From: Escherichia coli
Lineage (GTDB): Bacteria; Pseudomonadota; Gammaproteobacteria; Enterobacterales; Enterobacteriaceae
Length of the DNA: 64,000 bases
Reading direction: 5' to 3' (one strand)
Assembly: GCF_050920415.1 (NCBI RefSeq)
Contig: NZ_CP169309.1
Made by a program: the position numbers. Shown here piece after piece: positions 1 to 18,000 of this stretch (positions within the stretch are counted from its first letter, which is position 1; each line of letters begins with the position of its first letter).

Positions 1-3000
1 ACTCACCCAGCAGATCCGCTTTTGCCCTGGCAAAAACGGCCTTCATATACTGGGCACACAGGCTGTTCAGTCCGCCCATTTTTACGCCTGGTACCTCTGC
101 CGCCAGCGTGTGGCCTTTCGCTTTCCATCTGACCTCCACGTTTTCCAGCTCCGCATTCACCTCCGCCACTGCCGCAAGTAGCGCCTGGCTGATGGTGTCA
201 GCGTCAATATCTGGCGGTAGTGACCGCTGCGCCTGAAAATCCTTCAGATTCAGGTCTGGCCAGAATCCGTTATTGGTCAGCGGTTCATCCTGATAATCCA
301 GCGGCTTTCCGCTAAACATAAATCCCCCGAAAAAGGCGGACTGGCCGGTTTCCACGGCGCAGTTACACACAATGTGTTCTGCCCTCCACCGCGTCCGCCT
401 GGCTTGCGGTAGTCGTTTACTGCTCAGTATTAAAAGTGTGCGTATGTACACCACTCAGAGAATGGCTATGTGCACCCACGGTATGGGTATGAGCGCCTTG
501 TAAATGGCTTTCTTTCATTTGTTGTTATCCTTGTGTTGTCAATTTTCGGATGCGAGCGGCAATCGTCTGCCGTGCCGTTCTGACGCCAATTTTTGAGTAG
601 TGCTTTTCTGCAATAGCCAGCAATTGATCGGCCTTTTCCAGCGTTTCAATATCATCCACGCCCGCCGCCGTTTTCTGGCCATCGTCATTGCGTAGTAACT
701 CCTGACCGGCAAACTTGAACCATTTGGCCGTCACTTGCTCATGCAGTCGCCAGGTGTTTGCCACCCGCTCAAACGTGCGGGTGAAATAAGGCTCCACACT
801 TTCCCCGCGCCCTGCGGTTTCCTGCGCCCATGCCAGCATCGTATCCGCCACGAAAGTGGGAAAATTGCTGCGTAACCGATCCGGGGTTGCCTGCTGCTGG
901 CTGATAGCAATGTCAGCCCAGTCCAGCGCCTTATCCAGATCGCCCACGTCAAACAGCCAGATAACACACCAGGCGAAAACCGGATTTGCATACACCTGGC
1001 CACTCTCCAGATAGGCTTCCACAGTGGGAACCCAGCGCGGCAACAGCACATCGCGTTTATACCCGGCGCGATCGGCGATGGTAGGCAGACTTCGAACATG
1101 TTCCACATCCGTTTCCAGCGCCCTGATCAGCAGGTGCATACTTTCCGTGGTTTCCAGTGCCTTGCTGCGTTTCAGCTTTTGTTCCATCGCAATGCGCTGG
1201 CTGTGACGCTGCGCGGGGGAAAGTGCCATTTATCAGCCCTCCACCGGTTCGGAGACTTTGCCGATCGTCACTGCGGATTCATCAATGGCCGCATACAGCT
1301 CCGGCACTTCCACCGCGTAACCTTCATTGCGCAGGTATTTGTTTTCGAACTGCTTACGATCTTCAACAAACTCCGCCTTACGCATACGGGTATTGCGCTG
1401 GGTGTAGATGTGCAGGTTAGAAAGCGGCGTAACCACCATGCGTTTACCCGGCATAAACGGCGGGATAATAGCCGGACGGCCAGCAATGGTACTTCCCAGC
1501 ATCTGCGCCGCGATTTTTTCAGTCGGACGGTCTGCTGCCTGATACAGTCGGTATTGTTCAGCAGCGACCAGATCGGCACCAACCAGGACAACCAGACGCG
1601 GGTCATTACGGAACTGTGCCGGGATTTTGGCGTTAATCAGATCGGACGCCATTGCATCCAGTGATTTGTAATCCCCGGCCTCATCAAGCACCACGGCATC
1701 CGTCATAATCTGATTGCCGCCCAGCAGCGTTTTCATACGCTCATGCCAGCCAACGTTCACATCCTCGCCGTTCGGGTTAGTTTCCGGATCAGTGGTTTTC
1801 GCGCGACTTTTACCGTTAAAACCAATGCGCAACATATCCAGTGCAAAAGCCTGCGTGGTGAATGCCTGCACCAGGTTGTAAAACTCGTTTTCGTCCTTAC
1901 CGGCGTTTGCCCAGACAGAAAGCAGATCCCAGCGCAACGCGGCACAACTGTCTGTTTCAACTAGGGAATAGTCATTACCATCAACGCCTACCTGACGAAT
2001 GAAACGGCCATTTTCGCTGCGGCCGGTATGCAGCACAGAGGAACCGACAGAGATCACCTGGCCACTCAGCTGGTCAACATCCAGACAGGTGATCATGTTC
2101 AGGAACTCGACGGACTCCAGCAGCGCAAGACGCAGCGCATTTTCCTGCGGGTCATTCAGGGAAAAATATCGACTGGTATCACGCGCACCAAACTGCTGCG
2201 CCATCCCCGCCGAATATTTATCCAGTAAATCCCGCGCACGATTATTAAGGTGCATAAAACTCCCTCGCAATTAAGCGATTTAAAAATATGTTCTGGACTA
2301 ATCAGCAATAAAGCGAATTACAGGAAATTAAATTTCCCAGCTTTATCTTTAATAGTACGCCCCGGTGTACGGGTGTTTTTATTACCCAGATCGTTAAAGC
2401 GGGTTACGATTTCTTTTGCATTATCGCGAATTGCCGCGAATTCCTGCGTATCCACCACTTCAGCGATTGTGTCAACATCCCCCTGAACGTCATTCAGTTG
2501 AGTTTCAATTTTCGCCACTCGCGCTTCCAGATCGTTCACCACATTGGCAAGCGCCTGTAATTTATCTTCATCCGGGGCAGGATTATCCTGCGGCGTTTCA
2601 TCTTCAAACTTTGGCTTAATACCAAACAGTTTCTGCCAGTTCTTCATTCTTGCTTCCTGTTTAATTTTTCCGTCACGGGAAATTACACAACTGTAATATC
2701 CCTGCTTTGTTAATTTATTGCGCCGACTACTAAAGCGCAGCCGTGTGGTGCCAACGCTGGCAGGTGTATCTGTTACCGCCAGCCCTTTCAGGTAAGTACG
2801 CCCGCTACCGCGCCAGTTTTCTTCCGGCTCAATGGAGAAGAACAAAAGCTGATCTTCATGATTTGCGAAAATCAGACGCATATTCGGGCAAAGGCTGACA
2901 TATAACCGTGCCAGTCCATCTTTACCATCATTCCAGGTGGCTTCCAGCACTTCACCAAAATTCCCGCAATCATCCTCATGTTCTGGCCAGATTAAAGCGA

Positions 3001-15000: not shown

Positions 15001-18000
15001 CGTCAAAACTAAAGGGAAGCGAAACAGAACAATCCCCCTTGATGATGAACTTCTATCCGAATTACCTGAAACGAAAGGCGCTCTGTTCCCCAAGCCCTGC
15101 TATAACGCTTTCCGCTCTGCTTTGGAACGCGCAGGCATTGAACTCCCCTCCGGCCAGCTTACCCATGTACTGCGCCATACATTTGCCAGCCACTTTATGA
15201 TGAACGGCGGGAACATTCTGGTTCTGCAAAAAATTCTCGGCCACGCTGACATCACTATGACAATGCGTTATGCCCACTTCGCCCCAAGCCACCTTGAAGA
15301 TGCTGTGCGACTTAACCCCCTAAAATGTCGCAAAAATGTCGCGACAGCTTAGAAATACTGCCGAATACTCACAGATATTAACTAACGTAACTTATTGATA
15401 ACACTGTAACTTATTGTTTTTCGTAGATAGTTGATGCTTTATAATATAGCCTGTGCTATATCTGTATGTAATGCAATCATCCCTCAAGGATCGACGGGAT
15501 TAGCAAGTCAGGAGGTCTTATGAATGAGTTCAAGAGGTGTATGCGCGTGTTTAGTCATTCTCCCTTTAAAGTACGGTTAATGCTGCTCTCTATGTTGTGC
15601 GATATGGTCAACAACAAACCGCAGCAAGATAAACCTTCCGATAAATAGCGGCGTCGCGGTACGCCGCTTCACTCCTGCTTTTATGCAGGCACAACGCGTT
15701 TTGCTCTGAAAAACCCCACTTTTTGTCGGATTTGCAATCCCCTTCGCAAAAGATTTGTTCGTCAGTAGTTGACCTGAACGGCAGCTCGCTCTATCTTCTT
15801 GCAGCCCTGCGTATATTGCGGCTCGCGGATGCGGACCCTTTTCCCCTCTTCACGCACTCTTGCAGGTATTGACCCTTGACGCCAGGGTAAGCACATGGCG
15901 TTTGTTACGATAGTGGCATATGAATTTAACCCTCAAAGAATCGCTTGTTACCCGTAGCCGGGTATTTAGCCCGTGGACTGCGTTCTACTTTTTACAGTCG
16001 CTATTAATTAACCTCGGCTTAGGTTACCCCTTCAGTTTGCTATACACCGCCGCATTTACGGCTATTTTGCTTTTGCTATGGCGAACATTGCCTCGCGTAC
16101 AAAAAGTTCTGGTCGGTGTCAGTTCGCTGGTGGCGGCTTGTTATTTCCCTTTTGCTCAGGCCTACGGCGCGCCTAACTTCAATACCTTGCTGGCATTGCA
16201 TTCCACCAATATGGAAGAGTCGACCGAAATCCTGACGATTTTTCCGTGGTACAGCTACCTGGTCGGCTTATTTATTTTTGCGCTCGGCGTAATAGCAATC
16301 AGGCGGAAAAAAGAGAGCGAAAAAGCGCGCTGGAATACCTTCGACAGTCTGTGTCTGGTATTCAGTGTGGCGACATTTTTTGTTGCTCCCGTGCAAAATC
16401 TGGCCTGGGGCGGCGTATTTAAACTGAAAGATACTGGCTATCCGGTATTTCGTTTTGCTAAGGATGTCATCGTCAATAATAACGAGGTGATTGAAGAGCA
16501 AGAACGGATGGCAAAACTTTCCGGAATGAAAGATACCTGGACGGTCACTGCCGTTAAGCCGAAGTATCAGACCTATGTGGTGGTGATCGGTGAAAGTGCG
16601 CGTCGCGATGCCCTCGGTGCCTTTGGCGGTCACTGGGATAATACCCCGTTTGCCAGCAGCGTTAACGGTTTGCTTTTTGCTGACTACATTGCTGCCAGTG
16701 GCTCCACGCAGAAATCGCTTGGCTTAACACTCAATCGCGTAGTCGATGGCAAACCACAGTTTCAGGATAACTTTGTCACCCTGGCAAATCGCGCGGGCTT
16801 TCAGACGTGGTGGTTTTCCAATCAGGGCCAAATCGGCGAATACGATACCGCCATCGCCAGCATCGCCAAACGGGCAGATGAAGTGTATTTCCTGAAAGAC
16901 GGTAATTTTGAAGCAGATAAAAACACTAAAGACGAAGCGTTACTGGATATGACCGCGCAGGTGCTGGCGCAAGAACACTCGCAACCGCAACTGATTGTTT
17001 TACATCTGATGGGCTCACATCCACAGGCCTGCGACCGGACACAAGGCAAATACGCAACCTTTGTGCAATCGAAAGAAACATCATGCTATCTCTATACCAT
17101 GACACAAACGGACGATTTGTTGCGTAAGCTGTACGACCAGTTACGCAATAGCGGCAGCAGCTTCTCGCTGGTTTACTTTGCGGACCACGGTCTGGCCTTT
17201 AAAGAACGCGGCAAAGACGTGCAATACCTTGCCCATGATGATAAGTATCAGCAAAATTTCCAGGTGCCTTTTATGGTCATTTCGAGCGACGATAAAGCGC
17301 ATCGGGTGATTAAAGCCCGCCGTTCAGCCAATGACTTTTTAGGCTTTTTCTCGCAGTGGACGGGAATTAAAGCGAAGGAAATTAACATCAAATACCCGTT
17401 TATATCTGAGAAGAAAGCCGGGCCGATATACATCACCAACTTCCAGTTACAGAAGGTGGATTACAACCATCTCGGAACCGATATTTTCGACCCGAAACCT
17501 TAAAACAAAAAATCCGCCCCGAGAGGCGGATTTTTTATATCACCGAAGTGATTAGAAGCGGTAACCAACACCGGCAATCCAGGTGCCTACGTCAACGCTA
17601 CGAATACGGCTCTGCTCGTAAGAGAAGTCCAGAGCAACGTTTTCCATCGGGTTGAACTGCAGACCAGCACCGTAGGAGAAACCGTAGTCGCTGGTGTCGT
17701 GTTTGTAGGTCGGGTATTCAGTGGTCTGGAATTTACCATAACCCACACCCACTACACCGTAGATGCTTGCCCAGTCGTTAATGCGGTAAGCCGGACCAGC
17801 AGTGATGCCGTAGTACTGGTTTTTGTTGTAGTCACCAGAGCTTGCAGTACGGCTTTTCTCGGTGTAAGTGAAAGAACCGATCACACCCAGCGGGCTGTTG
17901 TCTTCTTCATAGCGGTATTTCAGGTTGAAACCGCCCATTTTGTTCATTTGGCCCTGAGCGTCGCTCTGTGCGTAACCGCCAGTTACGGTAGAAGTCGCAG

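What the first reader, a model, noticed from the sequence alone, without database searches (positions are those of the whole stretch)
1..15440. P2/186-like prophage integrated immediately upstream of mntS
L-M-N-O/P-Q packaging genes, gpA, dam, the CII/Apl/CI switch and a terminal integrase form a P2/186-type prophage whose integrase end abuts the mntS promoter (MntR-box palindrome at 15444..15461). From recall of K-12 gene order, mntR should lie across this junction, so the prophage would separate mntS from mntR. Only part of the prophage is in the window, so completeness cannot be judged.
Basis: partly seen in the sequence, partly recalled or inferred. Interest (0 to 1): 0.4.

Follow-up and report, generated by a model that had tools for sequence, protein, structure and literature searches.

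The report
P2-family prophage inserted beside mntS
Window 1-15439 is the integrase-side half of an ordinary, apparently functional P2-family temperate phage that has inserted between the E. coli manganese genes mntR and mntS, recombining at an 11-bp sequence inside the mntS promoter/operator; this is a rarely used but otherwise conventional integration site.

Summary
Window 1-15439 carries head and packaging genes L, M, N, O / P, Q. It also carries an Ogr/Delta activator, a LexA box with a Tum-like ORF, gpA, dam, Fil, CII, Apl/Cox, CI, an AT-rich cargo gene and a tyrosine integrase. Phage DNA ends at 15439.

An 11-bp core, TATAATATAGC (15440-15450), is shared with the empty site and with attL of related lysogens. 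It overlaps a TATAAT hexamer and the left half of the MntR palindrome (15444-15461), 80 bp upstream of mntS.

E. coli MFDS1022581 is 100% identical to the sampled 33 kb of window chromosome (16000-24000, 39001-64000) but has an empty mntR-mntS site. Only about 0.5% of 5,426 complete E. coli genomes are occupied there. Two occupied genomes examined in full carry 29-32 kb prophages with tail and lysis modules and mntR at the far end. A Citrobacter genome has the same junction.

Corrections: the phage is ESSI2/Quadragintavirus-like (93% nucleotide identity), not P2 or 186 proper. Its regulatory module is 186-like (Int 62%, CI 45%). The cargo gene between cI and int, a KAP NTPase matching PADLOC candidate PDC-S49, is frameshifted here. 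Whether the unseen half of this copy is complete cannot be shown.

The parts
1..319 (-). 5' part of the head-completion gene (gpL homologue), cut by the window edge
   Evidence: PF05926 Phage_GPL, E 1.6e-27. Aligns to the annotated head completion gene of JNE25-001.
525..1229 (-). small terminase subunit (gpM)
   Evidence: PF05944, E 8.5e-39.
1233..2270 (-). major capsid protein, P2 family (gpN)
   Evidence: PF05125, E 5.9e-99. 29% identical to the 186 T protein.
2318..3157 (-). capsid scaffold/protease (gpO)
   Evidence: PF05929, E 2.8e-35.
3283..5058 (+). large terminase subunit (gpP), divergent from O
   Evidence: PF03237, PF17289 and PF06056.
5055..6116 (+). portal protein (gpQ)
   Evidence: PF04860.
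6113..6436 (+). Ogr/Delta-type zinc-finger late-gene activator
   Evidence: PF04606, E 9e-20. PHROG 603, transcription regulation.
6410..6616 (-). 68-aa ORF, candidate Tum-like SOS-controlled antirepressor
   Evidence: PHROG 698. It lies just downstream of gene A, as tum does in 186. 32% identity over 38 aa to the Tum N-terminus, pairwise E 1e-5. No Pfam or NCBIfam hit.
6639..6658 (.). LexA-box-like palindrome AACTGGATATATATACAGTA, 23 bp upstream of the 68-aa ORF
   Evidence: The only match in the 64-kb window within 3 mismatches of the LexA consensus; 0.01 matches expected by chance. It is positionally equivalent to the 186 p95 LexA site.
6736..8757 (-). replication initiator/nickase (gpA)
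   Evidence: PF05840, E 4e-106.
8754..9635 (-). Dam-type N6-adenine DNA methyltransferase (PGAP start in the relative gives 8754-9614)
   Evidence: PF02086, E 3e-66. PADLOC orphan MTase.
9605..10771 (-). early genes of unknown function: DUF2732 (9605-9838), PHROG 3935 (9906-10307), PHROG 33841 (10307-10771)
10744..10917 (-). Fil (186 filamentation protein homologue)
   Evidence: PF10893, E 7.7e-11.
10927..11430 (-). CII lysogeny-establishment regulator
   Evidence: PF06892 Phage_CP76, E 3.7e-46.
11461..11682 (-). Apl/Cox-like excisionase and repressor
   Evidence: PHROG 575, E 1.5e-27.
11819..12403 (+). CI immunity repressor, 186 type
   Evidence: PF07022 and PF16452. 45% identical to 186 CI. 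Only 35% identical to ESSI2_ev040 CI, so it is a different immunity type.
12482..14265 (+). AT-rich cargo gene: KAP-family P-loop NTPase (PADLOC candidate PDC-S49), broken here by a 1-nt deletion in a poly-A run (A7 at 12692-12698; A8 in the intact copy)
   Evidence: GC is 0.28-0.35 here against about 0.52 for the rest of the phage. PF07693. PDC-S49, E 1e-128 for the intact JNE25-001 protein. Frameshift shown.
14312..15352 (+). tyrosine integrase
   Evidence: PF24624 and PF00589. 62% identical to 186 Int, with the ...GARW..., HVLRHTFASH and MRYAH motifs aligned.
15387..15416 (+). two 11-bp direct repeats GTAACTTATTG (15387-15397, 15406-15416) in the int-proximal arm; candidate Int arm-type sites
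   Evidence: Conserved in other lysogens, in the Citrobacter copy and in the ESSI2_ev015 attP arm. The function is inferred by analogy with the 186 annotation.
15440..15450 (.). att core TATAATATAGC (attR copy); phage-specific DNA ends at 15439
   Evidence: Alignment of attR, attL and attB. An attP-type junction is seen in an IMG/VR contig.
15444..15461 (.). MntR-box palindrome ATATAGC-CTGT-GCTATAT; its left half lies inside the att core
   Evidence: Read directly from the sequence. Identity as the MntR operator rests on the known E. coli MntR site (ATAGC-N4-GCTAT in mntH; background knowledge) and on MntR repression of mntS (PMC4361602).
15520..15648 (+). mntS (host gene flanking attR)
   Evidence: RefSeq annotation of identical sequence.

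Best explanation
Window 1-15439 is the integrase-proximal half of a temperate Peduoviridae (P2-family) prophage.

**What kind of phage (shown).** The structural and replication genes are ESSI2/Quadragintavirus-like. The lysis-lysogeny module is phage-186-like: CI, Apl/Cox, CII and Fil, plus a LexA box in front of a Tum-like ORF.

**How it inserted (shown).** Its tyrosine integrase recombined an attP containing TATAATATAGC with the identical 11 bp in the mntR-mntS intergenic region. The core is 80 bp upstream of the mntS ATG and 105 bp upstream of the mntR ATG. Recombination duplicated the core. The whole MntR operator, a TATAAT hexamer and mntS stay at attR. mntR is pushed about 30 kb away, to attL.

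**How it works (inferred from 186 biology).** CI, the KAP-NTPase cargo gene and int form the rightward lysogenic operon, which is expressed in the lysogen. SOS induction would relieve LexA repression of the Tum-like antirepressor and inactivate CI. The leftward lytic operon (apl, cII, fil ... dam, A) would then be switched on. Apl together with Int would excise the phage. Ogr/Delta would activate the divergent O-N-M-L and P-Q late operons.

**Why this site (inferred).** The target is probably used because the mntS promoter/operator is conserved across enterobacterial genera.
For: **Gene content**
- Gene families.
- 93% nucleotide identity over 74% of the region to Escherichia phages ESSI2_ev015 and ev040 (Peduoviridae; Quadragintavirus).
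- ESSI2-type phages were isolated as temperate coliphages (PMC6969025).
- Identity to 186: Int 62%, CI 45%, and synteny with 186 A-p95(LexA)-tum.

**Junction and core**
- Chromosomal homology starts at about 15436.
- The attR/attL/attB alignment gives the common core TATAATATAGC.
- An attP-type junction occurs in a 29.6-kb IMG/VR contig.

**Comparison genomes**
- MFDS1022581 is 100.0% identical and colinear to window 16000-24000 and 39001-64000, has an empty site, and lacks the phage.
- 5392 of 5421 E. coli genomes have an uninterrupted site.
- 28 genomes have a related integrase next to mntS. This is essentially every genome that has this integrase (29 genomes), at 83-99% nucleotide identity, so these are several independent phage variants.
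- In the two occupied genomes examined in full, the prophage is 29-32 kb, has tail, lysis and baseplate genes, and has mntR at the far end.
- The same phage arm plus core is joined to mntS of Citrobacter amalonaticus and of a divergent metagenomic host.

**Intactness**
- All visible ORFs except the cargo gene have the same lengths as in the annotated relatives.
Against: - The left half of this copy (tail, lysis, attL) is outside the window, so intactness and the second att site are shown only in relatives.
- One gene, the KAP NTPase, is frameshifted. That could be a first sign of decay, or a homopolymer sequencing error.
- No cos site was recognised: the P2 cos sequence is absent.
- The pR/pL promoters were not resolved by the consensus scan.
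- The Tum assignment rests on synteny, a LexA box and a weak 38-aa similarity only.
- The regulatory mechanism is extrapolated from 186, not tested.
Confidence: 0.9

Rival explanations
1. The element is a defective or cryptic remnant: the unseen left half is deleted or degraded, or the phage is otherwise no longer inducible.
For: - The cargo KAP NTPase is frameshifted.
- Only half of the element is visible.
- No cos site was identified.
Against: - Every other visible gene is full length relative to the annotated relatives.
- A strain 100% identical to the 33 kb of flanking window chromosome that was compared lacks the prophage, which implies very recent gain or clean excision.
- The two occupied sites examined in full hold complete 29-32 kb prophages.
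- The frameshift is in an accessory gene and in a homopolymer run.
Confidence: 0.1
2. The prophage is a genuine P2 (Peduovirus) or 186 (Eganvirus) phage in the narrow sense.
For: - The Q-P / O-N-M-L head cluster, gpA and Ogr are shared.
- The CI/Apl/CII/Fil proteins are 186-like.
- Int is 62% and CI 45% identical to those of 186.
Against: - Megablast finds no P2 or 186 record, only ESSI2-type phages.
- The capsid is 29% identical to that of 186.
- ogr follows Q rather than lying next to att.
- The tail module of the relatives is of a different type (DUF2586 sheath, DUF2590).
- The P2 cos sequence is absent.
- The attachment site differs: 186 uses ileY.
Confidence: 0.03
3. The phage-chromosome junction is an assembly chimera rather than a real integration.
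For: The prophage as a whole matches no single genome in the collection. Its head module is 97.7% identical to that of 1919D3-type prophages, and its early region is 99.4% identical to that of JNE25-001.
Against: - The int-mntS adjacency recurs in 28 complete E. coli genomes.
- The junction sequence, read in one of those genomes, in Citrobacter and in IMG/VR contigs, is the same.
- Mosaicism of this kind is normal for temperate phages.
Confidence: 0.01

Closest known systems
Escherichia phages ESSI2_ev015 / ESSI2_ev040 / ESSI2_ev129 (Peduoviridae, Quadragintavirus)
   Same: - 93-94.5% nucleotide identity over about 70-74% of window 1-15440.
- Same gene order from the head genes through A, dam, cII and apl.
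- About 30-kb temperate coliphages (PMC6969025).
   Different: - Different immunity: the window CI is about 35% identical to that of ESSI2_ev040.
- Different integrase C-terminus and att: ESSI2_ev015 attP carries a tRNA 3' end, not the mntS core.
- No cargo gene between cI and int in ESSI2_ev015.
- ESSI2_ev015 has extra early genes (exonuclease subunit, RNA-binding protein) that are absent here.
Prophages at mntR/mntS in E. coli JNE25-001, JNE12-007, 1919D3 and about 25 other complete genomes
   Same: - Same integration site.
- Same attR sequence, read in 1919D3.
- Same architecture in the two genomes examined in full, JNE25-001 and 1919D3.
- The JNE25-001 early region is 99-99.9% identical and includes an intact copy of the same KAP NTPase.
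- The 1919D3 head module is 97.7% identical.
   Different: - The window phage is a mosaic of these two types.
- Its KAP NTPase is frameshifted.
- Cargo next to attL varies among relatives (PIN/STAS-like/ATPase in JNE25-001, serine acetyltransferase in 1919D3) and is unseen here.
Coliphage 186 (Eganvirus)
   Same: - The lysis-lysogeny module: CI, Apl, CII and Fil families.
- cI and int in one operon, divergent from apl-cII...A.
- A LexA-box gene downstream of A.
- Int 62% and CI 45% identical.
   Different: - Structural genes are only distantly related (capsid 29%).
- The late activator sits after the portal gene.
- There is a dam gene in place of the 186 orf80-84 genes.
- The Tum-like ORF is 68 aa and lacks the DinI-like C-terminal half.
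- 186 integrates into tRNA-Ile ileY with a 36-bp common sequence; this phage integrates into an intergenic promoter/operator with an 11-bp core.

Membership tests
Peduoviridae (P2-like phages) | P2-family major capsid protein with GPO scaffold, gpM/gpP terminase, gpQ portal and gpL, arranged as divergent Q-P / O-N-M-L clusters | tested here: met
   Pfam hits and coordinates.
Peduoviridae (P2-like phages) | GpA-type rolling-circle replication initiator and Ogr/Delta zinc-finger late activator | tested here: met
   PF05840, E 4e-106; PF04606, E 9e-20.
Peduoviridae (P2-like phages) | Contractile tail, baseplate and lysis modules | not testable with these tools
   These lie outside the window. They are present in the related prophages at the same site and in ESSI2_ev015.
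Genus Quadragintavirus (ESSI2_ev-type) | At least 70% nucleotide identity over the whole genome to a member (ICTV genus criterion; background knowledge) | tested here: inconclusive
   For the visible half, 74% coverage x 93% identity gives about 69%. The other half is unseen.
Peduovirus / Eganvirus (P2 or 186 proper) | Nucleotide-level similarity to P2 or 186, and a P2/186-type cos sequence | tested here: not met
   No P2 or 186 record among the megablast hits. Capsid 29% identical at the amino-acid level. The P2 cos 19-mer is absent even with 3 mismatches.
186-type lysis-lysogeny switch | CI (HTH + CI_C domains), Apl/Cox-like excisionase-repressor and CII, with cI-int divergent from apl-cII | tested here: met
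   PF07022 + PF16452, PHROG 575, PF06892, and gene orientation.
186-type lysis-lysogeny switch | LexA-repressed Tum antirepressor downstream of gene A | tested here: inconclusive
   A LexA-like box at 6639-6658 and a syntenic 68-aa ORF with weak similarity to the Tum N-terminus. There is no DinI-like half and no family hit.
186-type lysis-lysogeny switch | Face-to-face pR/pL promoters with CI and Apl operators | tested here: inconclusive
   The consensus promoter scan of 11400-12520 gave nothing above the shuffle expectation in the cI-apl gap.
Site-specific (tyrosine integrase) prophage integration | Tyrosine recombinase adjacent to one end of the element | tested here: met
   PF00589 + PF24624. 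The catalytic-region motifs align with 186 Int.
Site-specific (tyrosine integrase) prophage integration | Identical core at attR, attL and the empty attB; element absent from an otherwise identical chromosome | tested here: met
   The window attR was compared with the attB of near-isogenic MFDS1022581 and of LY180. attL was taken from JNE25-001 and 1919D3, because the window's own attL is not visible.
Site-specific (tyrosine integrase) prophage integration | Arm-type Int binding repeats in attP arms | tested here: inconclusive
   Conserved direct repeats GTAACTTATTG x2 at 15387-15416. Binding was not tested.
PADLOC candidate defence gene PDC-S49 (KAP NTPase) | Full-length match to the PDC-S49 profile as one intact ORF | tested here: not met
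   The sequence matches the profile (E 1e-128 for the intact JNE25-001 copy; E 3e-106 for the window C-terminal fragment). The window copy is split by a frameshift at 12692-12698.

The most novel reading that the evidence does not exclude
The choice of att site may have regulatory consequences, in either of two ways.

**Effect on the host.** The 11-bp core is both a TATAAT hexamer of the mntS promoter region and the left half-site of the MntR operator. Integration replaces everything upstream of that hexamer with phage DNA. It places mntS directly downstream of the lysogenic cI-cargo-int operon, with no recognisable terminator between them. In 186, the terminator of the lysogenic operon lies across attP. 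Integration also separates mntR from the operator-containing half of the shared intergenic region. Lysogeny could therefore alter MntS/MntR expression and manganese homeostasis.

**Effect on the phage.** Mn-loaded MntR bound at attB and attR could occlude the crossover region. That would make integration or excision dependent on manganese.
Probability: 0.12. Interest if true: 0.5.

Novelty: new member of a known kind. Interest (0 to 1): 0.22.

Why it matters
It mainly matters as annotation. It identifies a mobile 30-kb element, fixes its right boundary to the base, and defines a rarely used attachment site (about 0.5% of complete E. coli genomes; also used in Citrobacter). Unusually, that site is a transcription-factor operator and promoter rather than a tRNA gene.

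It also supplies a natural near-isogenic pair: the window strain and MFDS1022581. That pair could be used to test whether lysogeny at this site perturbs mntS/mntR regulation.

Finally, it shows that the cI-int junction of these phages is a cargo hotspot. Here it carries an untested defence candidate, the KAP NTPase PDC-S49.

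Tried and rejected
- **tRNA and Rfam scans of 1-20000** found nothing, so the target is not a tRNA or a known RNA gene, and no Rfam RybA model was available to place the mntS 5' end.
- **P2 cos 19-mer search** gave no match. cos was not located.
- **Promoter scan for pR/pL** was uninformative. The scan and the fold of the int-mntS spacer found no + strand terminator. They found one minus-strand terminator-like hairpin at 15363-15342.
- **Literature searches** for prophage integration at mntS/mntR/ybiR found no relevant paper. PDC-S49 appears in no paper of the library.
- **Waters et al. 2011**, which mapped the rybA/mntS start and MntR sites, is not held in the library. 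Calling TATAAT at 15440-15445 the mntS -10 is therefore an inference.
- **Salmonella phage S.Kent 1-2-1** has the closest deposited integrase (76%), but the record is an unannotated partial contig and gave no att information.
- **Pfam and NCBIfam** gave nothing for the 68-aa ORF or the two early hypothetical proteins.
- **Local files:** several loci were not copied to the Python sandbox, so att comparisons were done with get_sequence and DNA alignment instead.
- **Rejected readings:** genuine P2 or 186, a satellite such as P4 (structural genes are present), and assembly chimera.

Full report

Yes. The six-frame ORF list and the Pfam/PHROG scans give, from left to right:

| Coordinates | Strand | Gene or feature |
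|---|---|---|
| <1-319 | - | gpL, head completion (cut by the window edge) |
| 525-1229 | - | gpM, small terminase |
| 1233-2270 | - | gpN, P2-family capsid (E 5.9e-99) |
| 2318-3157 | - | gpO, scaffold |
| 3283-5058 | + | gpP, large terminase |
| 5055-6116 | + | gpQ, portal |
| 6113-6436 | + | Ogr/Delta zinc-finger activator |
| 6410-6616 | - | 68-aa ORF |
| 6736-8757 | - | gpA (E 4e-106) |
| 8754-9635 | - | D12-class Dam methylase |
| 9605-10771 | - | DUF2732 and two unknown early genes |
| 10744-10917 | - | 186 Fil |
| 10927-11430 | - | CII |
| 11461-11682 | - | Cox/Apl-like protein |
| 11819-12403 | + | 186-type CI |
| 12482-14265 | + | AT-rich cargo gene |
| 14312-15352 | + | tyrosine integrase |

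These E-values cannot arise by chance. There is no tRNA and no Rfam family in 1-20000.

**2. The junction and the att site**

A query spanning int-mntS-opgE matches 5421 of 5426 complete E. coli genomes. In all but 28 of them the match begins only at window position about 15436.

I aligned four kinds of sequence:
- the window junction;
- the same junction in strain 1919D3;
- two empty sites (LY180, MFDS1022581);
- two attL junctions (1919D3, JNE25-001).

All share exactly TATAATATAGC, which is window 15440-15450. The flanks are GCT(T/A) on the left and (C/T)T on the right. Phage-specific DNA ends at 15439.

An IMG/VR contig of 29.6 kb shows the attP configuration: int arm, then core, then the other phage arm.

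The core overlaps a perfect TATAAT hexamer (15440-15445). It also overlaps the left half of the palindrome ATATAGC-CTGT-GCTATAT (15444-15461). That palindrome fits the E. coli MntR operator type (background knowledge), and MntR-Mn is known to repress mntS (PMC4361602). mntS is at 15520-15648.

Two conserved 11-bp direct repeats, GTAACTTATTG (15387-15397 and 15406-15416), lie in the int-proximal arm. They are candidate arm-type Int sites, by analogy with the 186 annotation.

**3. What lies across the junction**

In empty genomes, mntR is divergent from mntS and 185 bp away. In lysogens JNE25-001 and 1919D3, the prophage is 29-32 kb. It carries sheath, tape-measure, baseplate, tail-fibre, holin and endolysin genes, and it ends next to mntR.

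Of 5421 genomes, 5392 have an uninterrupted site. Twenty-eight have a related integrase next to mntS. That is essentially every genome in which this integrase occurs (29 genomes). Their nucleotide identity ranges from 83% to 99%, so several distinct phage variants use the same site.

The same phage arm plus core is joined to the mntS orthologue of Citrobacter amalonaticus and to that of a divergent metagenomic host. The target is therefore conserved across genera. This plausibly explains why it serves as an att site (inference).

**4. A near-isogenic empty strain**

E. coli MFDS1022581 is 100.0% identical and colinear with window 16000-24000 and 39001-64000. The next-best genomes are at 98.9%. 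MFDS1022581 nevertheless has an intact mntR-mntS region. It is also absent from the hit lists for the phage itself.

The window strain is therefore a very close relative that gained the phage, or MFDS1022581 lost it cleanly. Either way, the element was recently mobile.

**5. What kind of phage**

Megablast against deposited phages finds only ESSI2-type Peduoviridae: ESSI2_ev015, ev040 and ev129, at 93-94.5% identity over 69-74% of the region (genus Quadragintavirus). It finds no P2 or 186 record. These ESSI2 phages were recovered as temperate coliphages from infant E. coli isolates (PMC6969025).

| Comparison with 186 | Result |
|---|---|
| Integrase | 62% identical |
| CI | 45% identical |
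| Capsid | 29% identical |

'P2/186-like' is therefore correct at family level and for the regulatory module, but not at genus level.

The window copy is a mosaic:
- Its head module is 97.7% identical to 1919D3-type prophages but 87-89% identical to JNE25-001.
- Its early region (about 6.5-15.4 kb) is 99-99.9% identical to JNE25-001.

Its CI is only about 35% identical to that of ESSI2_ev040. ESSI2_ev015 has a tRNA-type attP. Immunity and att specificity therefore differ from the named phages. The closest deposited integrase is 76% identical.

**6.

(a) *LexA box and Tum-like ORF.* A LexA-box-like palindrome, AACTGGATATATATACAGTA, lies at 6639-6658. It is the only such match in the window, against 0.01 expected by chance. 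It sits 23 bp upstream of the 68-aa ORF. That ORF lies immediately downstream of gene A, exactly where 186 has p95(LexA)-tum. It shows weak similarity to the Tum N-terminus. An SOS-inducible antirepressor is the likely reading, but this is inferred.

(b) *Cargo gene between cI and int.* The cI-int interval holds an AT-rich gene (GC 0.28-0.35). It encodes a KAP-family P-loop NTPase that matches the PADLOC candidate PDC-S49. The gene is intact (594 aa) in JNE25-001. In the window it is split by loss of one A in an A8 run (A7 at 12692-12698). This is either a real inactivation or a homopolymer sequencing error.

Among related prophages this interval is either empty or holds other genes, so it is a cargo hotspot. 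Quadragintavirus prophages are reported to carry defence genes preferentially (PMC11305592).

**7. How it most likely works**

*Shown:*
- the gene families present;
- their orientation;
- the core shared by attR, attL, attB and attP;
- the absence of the element from a near-identical chromosome.

*Inferred from 186:*
- CI maintains lysogeny.
- The rightward cI-cargo-int operon is expressed in the lysogen.
- DNA damage removes LexA from the box at 6639-6658.
- The Tum-like protein inactivates CI.
- The leftward operon apl-cII-fil...dam-A fires.
- Apl plus Int excise the phage at the 11-bp core.
- gpA starts rolling-circle replication.
- Ogr/Delta activates the divergent O-N-M-L and P-Q late operons.

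**8. Possible consequences for the host (speculative)**

At attR, the TATAAT hexamer, the whole MntR palindrome and mntS are native. Everything upstream of them is phage DNA.

No + strand terminator is detectable between the int stop codon (15352) and the core. In 186, the terminator of the lysogenic operon lies across attP. Read-through into mntS is therefore conceivable.

A minus-strand promoter-like site lies in the native region: ATTACA at 15472-15467 and TATATT at 15448-15443. Only its -10 lies inside the duplicated core. Whether this is the mntR promoter is unknown. A second candidate lies nearer to mntR. I could not read the paper that mapped the mntS start.

I give this regulatory reading a probability of about 0.12.

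**9. Verdict**

I found no description of the site in the searchable literature.

Novelty: a new member of a known kind. Interest: low to moderate.

The completeness of this copy remains untested. The evidence from intact visible genes, complete relatives and a near-isogenic empty strain makes an intact, recently mobile phage the most likely state.

Noticed in passing
window 12482-14265 (poly-A run at 12692-12698): An AT-rich KAP-family NTPase cargo gene (PADLOC candidate PDC-S49) lies between cI and int. It is split by a 1-nt deletion in an A8 run, relative to the intact 594-aa copy in E. coli JNE25-001. This is either a real inactivation or a homopolymer sequencing error. The cI-int interval is empty or holds other genes in related prophages.
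   Followed up: partly
window 6410-6658: A LexA-box-like palindrome (6639-6658) sits 23 bp upstream of a 68-aa ORF (6410-6616, -) downstream of gene A. This is syntenic with 186 p95-tum, and the ORF is weakly similar to the Tum N-terminus. It has no DinI-like half and no Pfam or NCBIfam hit.
   Followed up: partly
window 15440-64000 vs NZ_CP169399.1 (L006, L007): E. coli MFDS1022581 (food isolate, Korea) is 100.0% identical and colinear to the two window stretches compared (16000-24000 and 39001-64000). It has an empty mntR-mntS site and lacks this phage, so the two strains form a natural lysogen / non-lysogen pair.
   Followed up: yes
window 15342-15363 (- strand): A terminator-like hairpin plus T-run lies on the minus strand immediately after the int stop codon. 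It is oriented to stop leftward transcription entering the prophage from the host promoter region. No + strand terminator was found between int and mntS.
   Followed up: no
L003 12196-14055 (JNE25-001) and L005 6308-7012 (1919D3): The attL-proximal end of related prophages is a second cargo site. JNE25-001 carries a three-gene cluster there (ATP-binding protein, STAS-like protein, PIN-domain protein). 1919D3, like ESSI2_ev015, carries a serine acetyltransferase. The corresponding end of the window's prophage is outside the window.
   Followed up: no
window about 35498-37510 (-), between dinG and rhlE: The identical MFDS1022581 sequence is annotated as a 670-aa 'type III effector' gene inserted between core genes.
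   Followed up: no
window about 49003-50566 and 56326-60759: Two small variable islets were seen: SUKH-4 immunity protein / hypothetical / DUF3969 between ybhN and ybhL, and a 765-aa pentapeptide-repeat protein plus a 550-aa hypothetical protein between yvcK and uvrB. Only 24 of 5426 genomes cover at least 80% of window 39001-64000.
   Followed up: no
L023 1400-1800 (Citrobacter amalonaticus) and L022 13330-13612 (metagenome): The same phage arm plus core is joined to divergent mntS orthologues in another genus. The attB sequence (TATAAT hexamer plus MntR box) is conserved there.
   Followed up: partly
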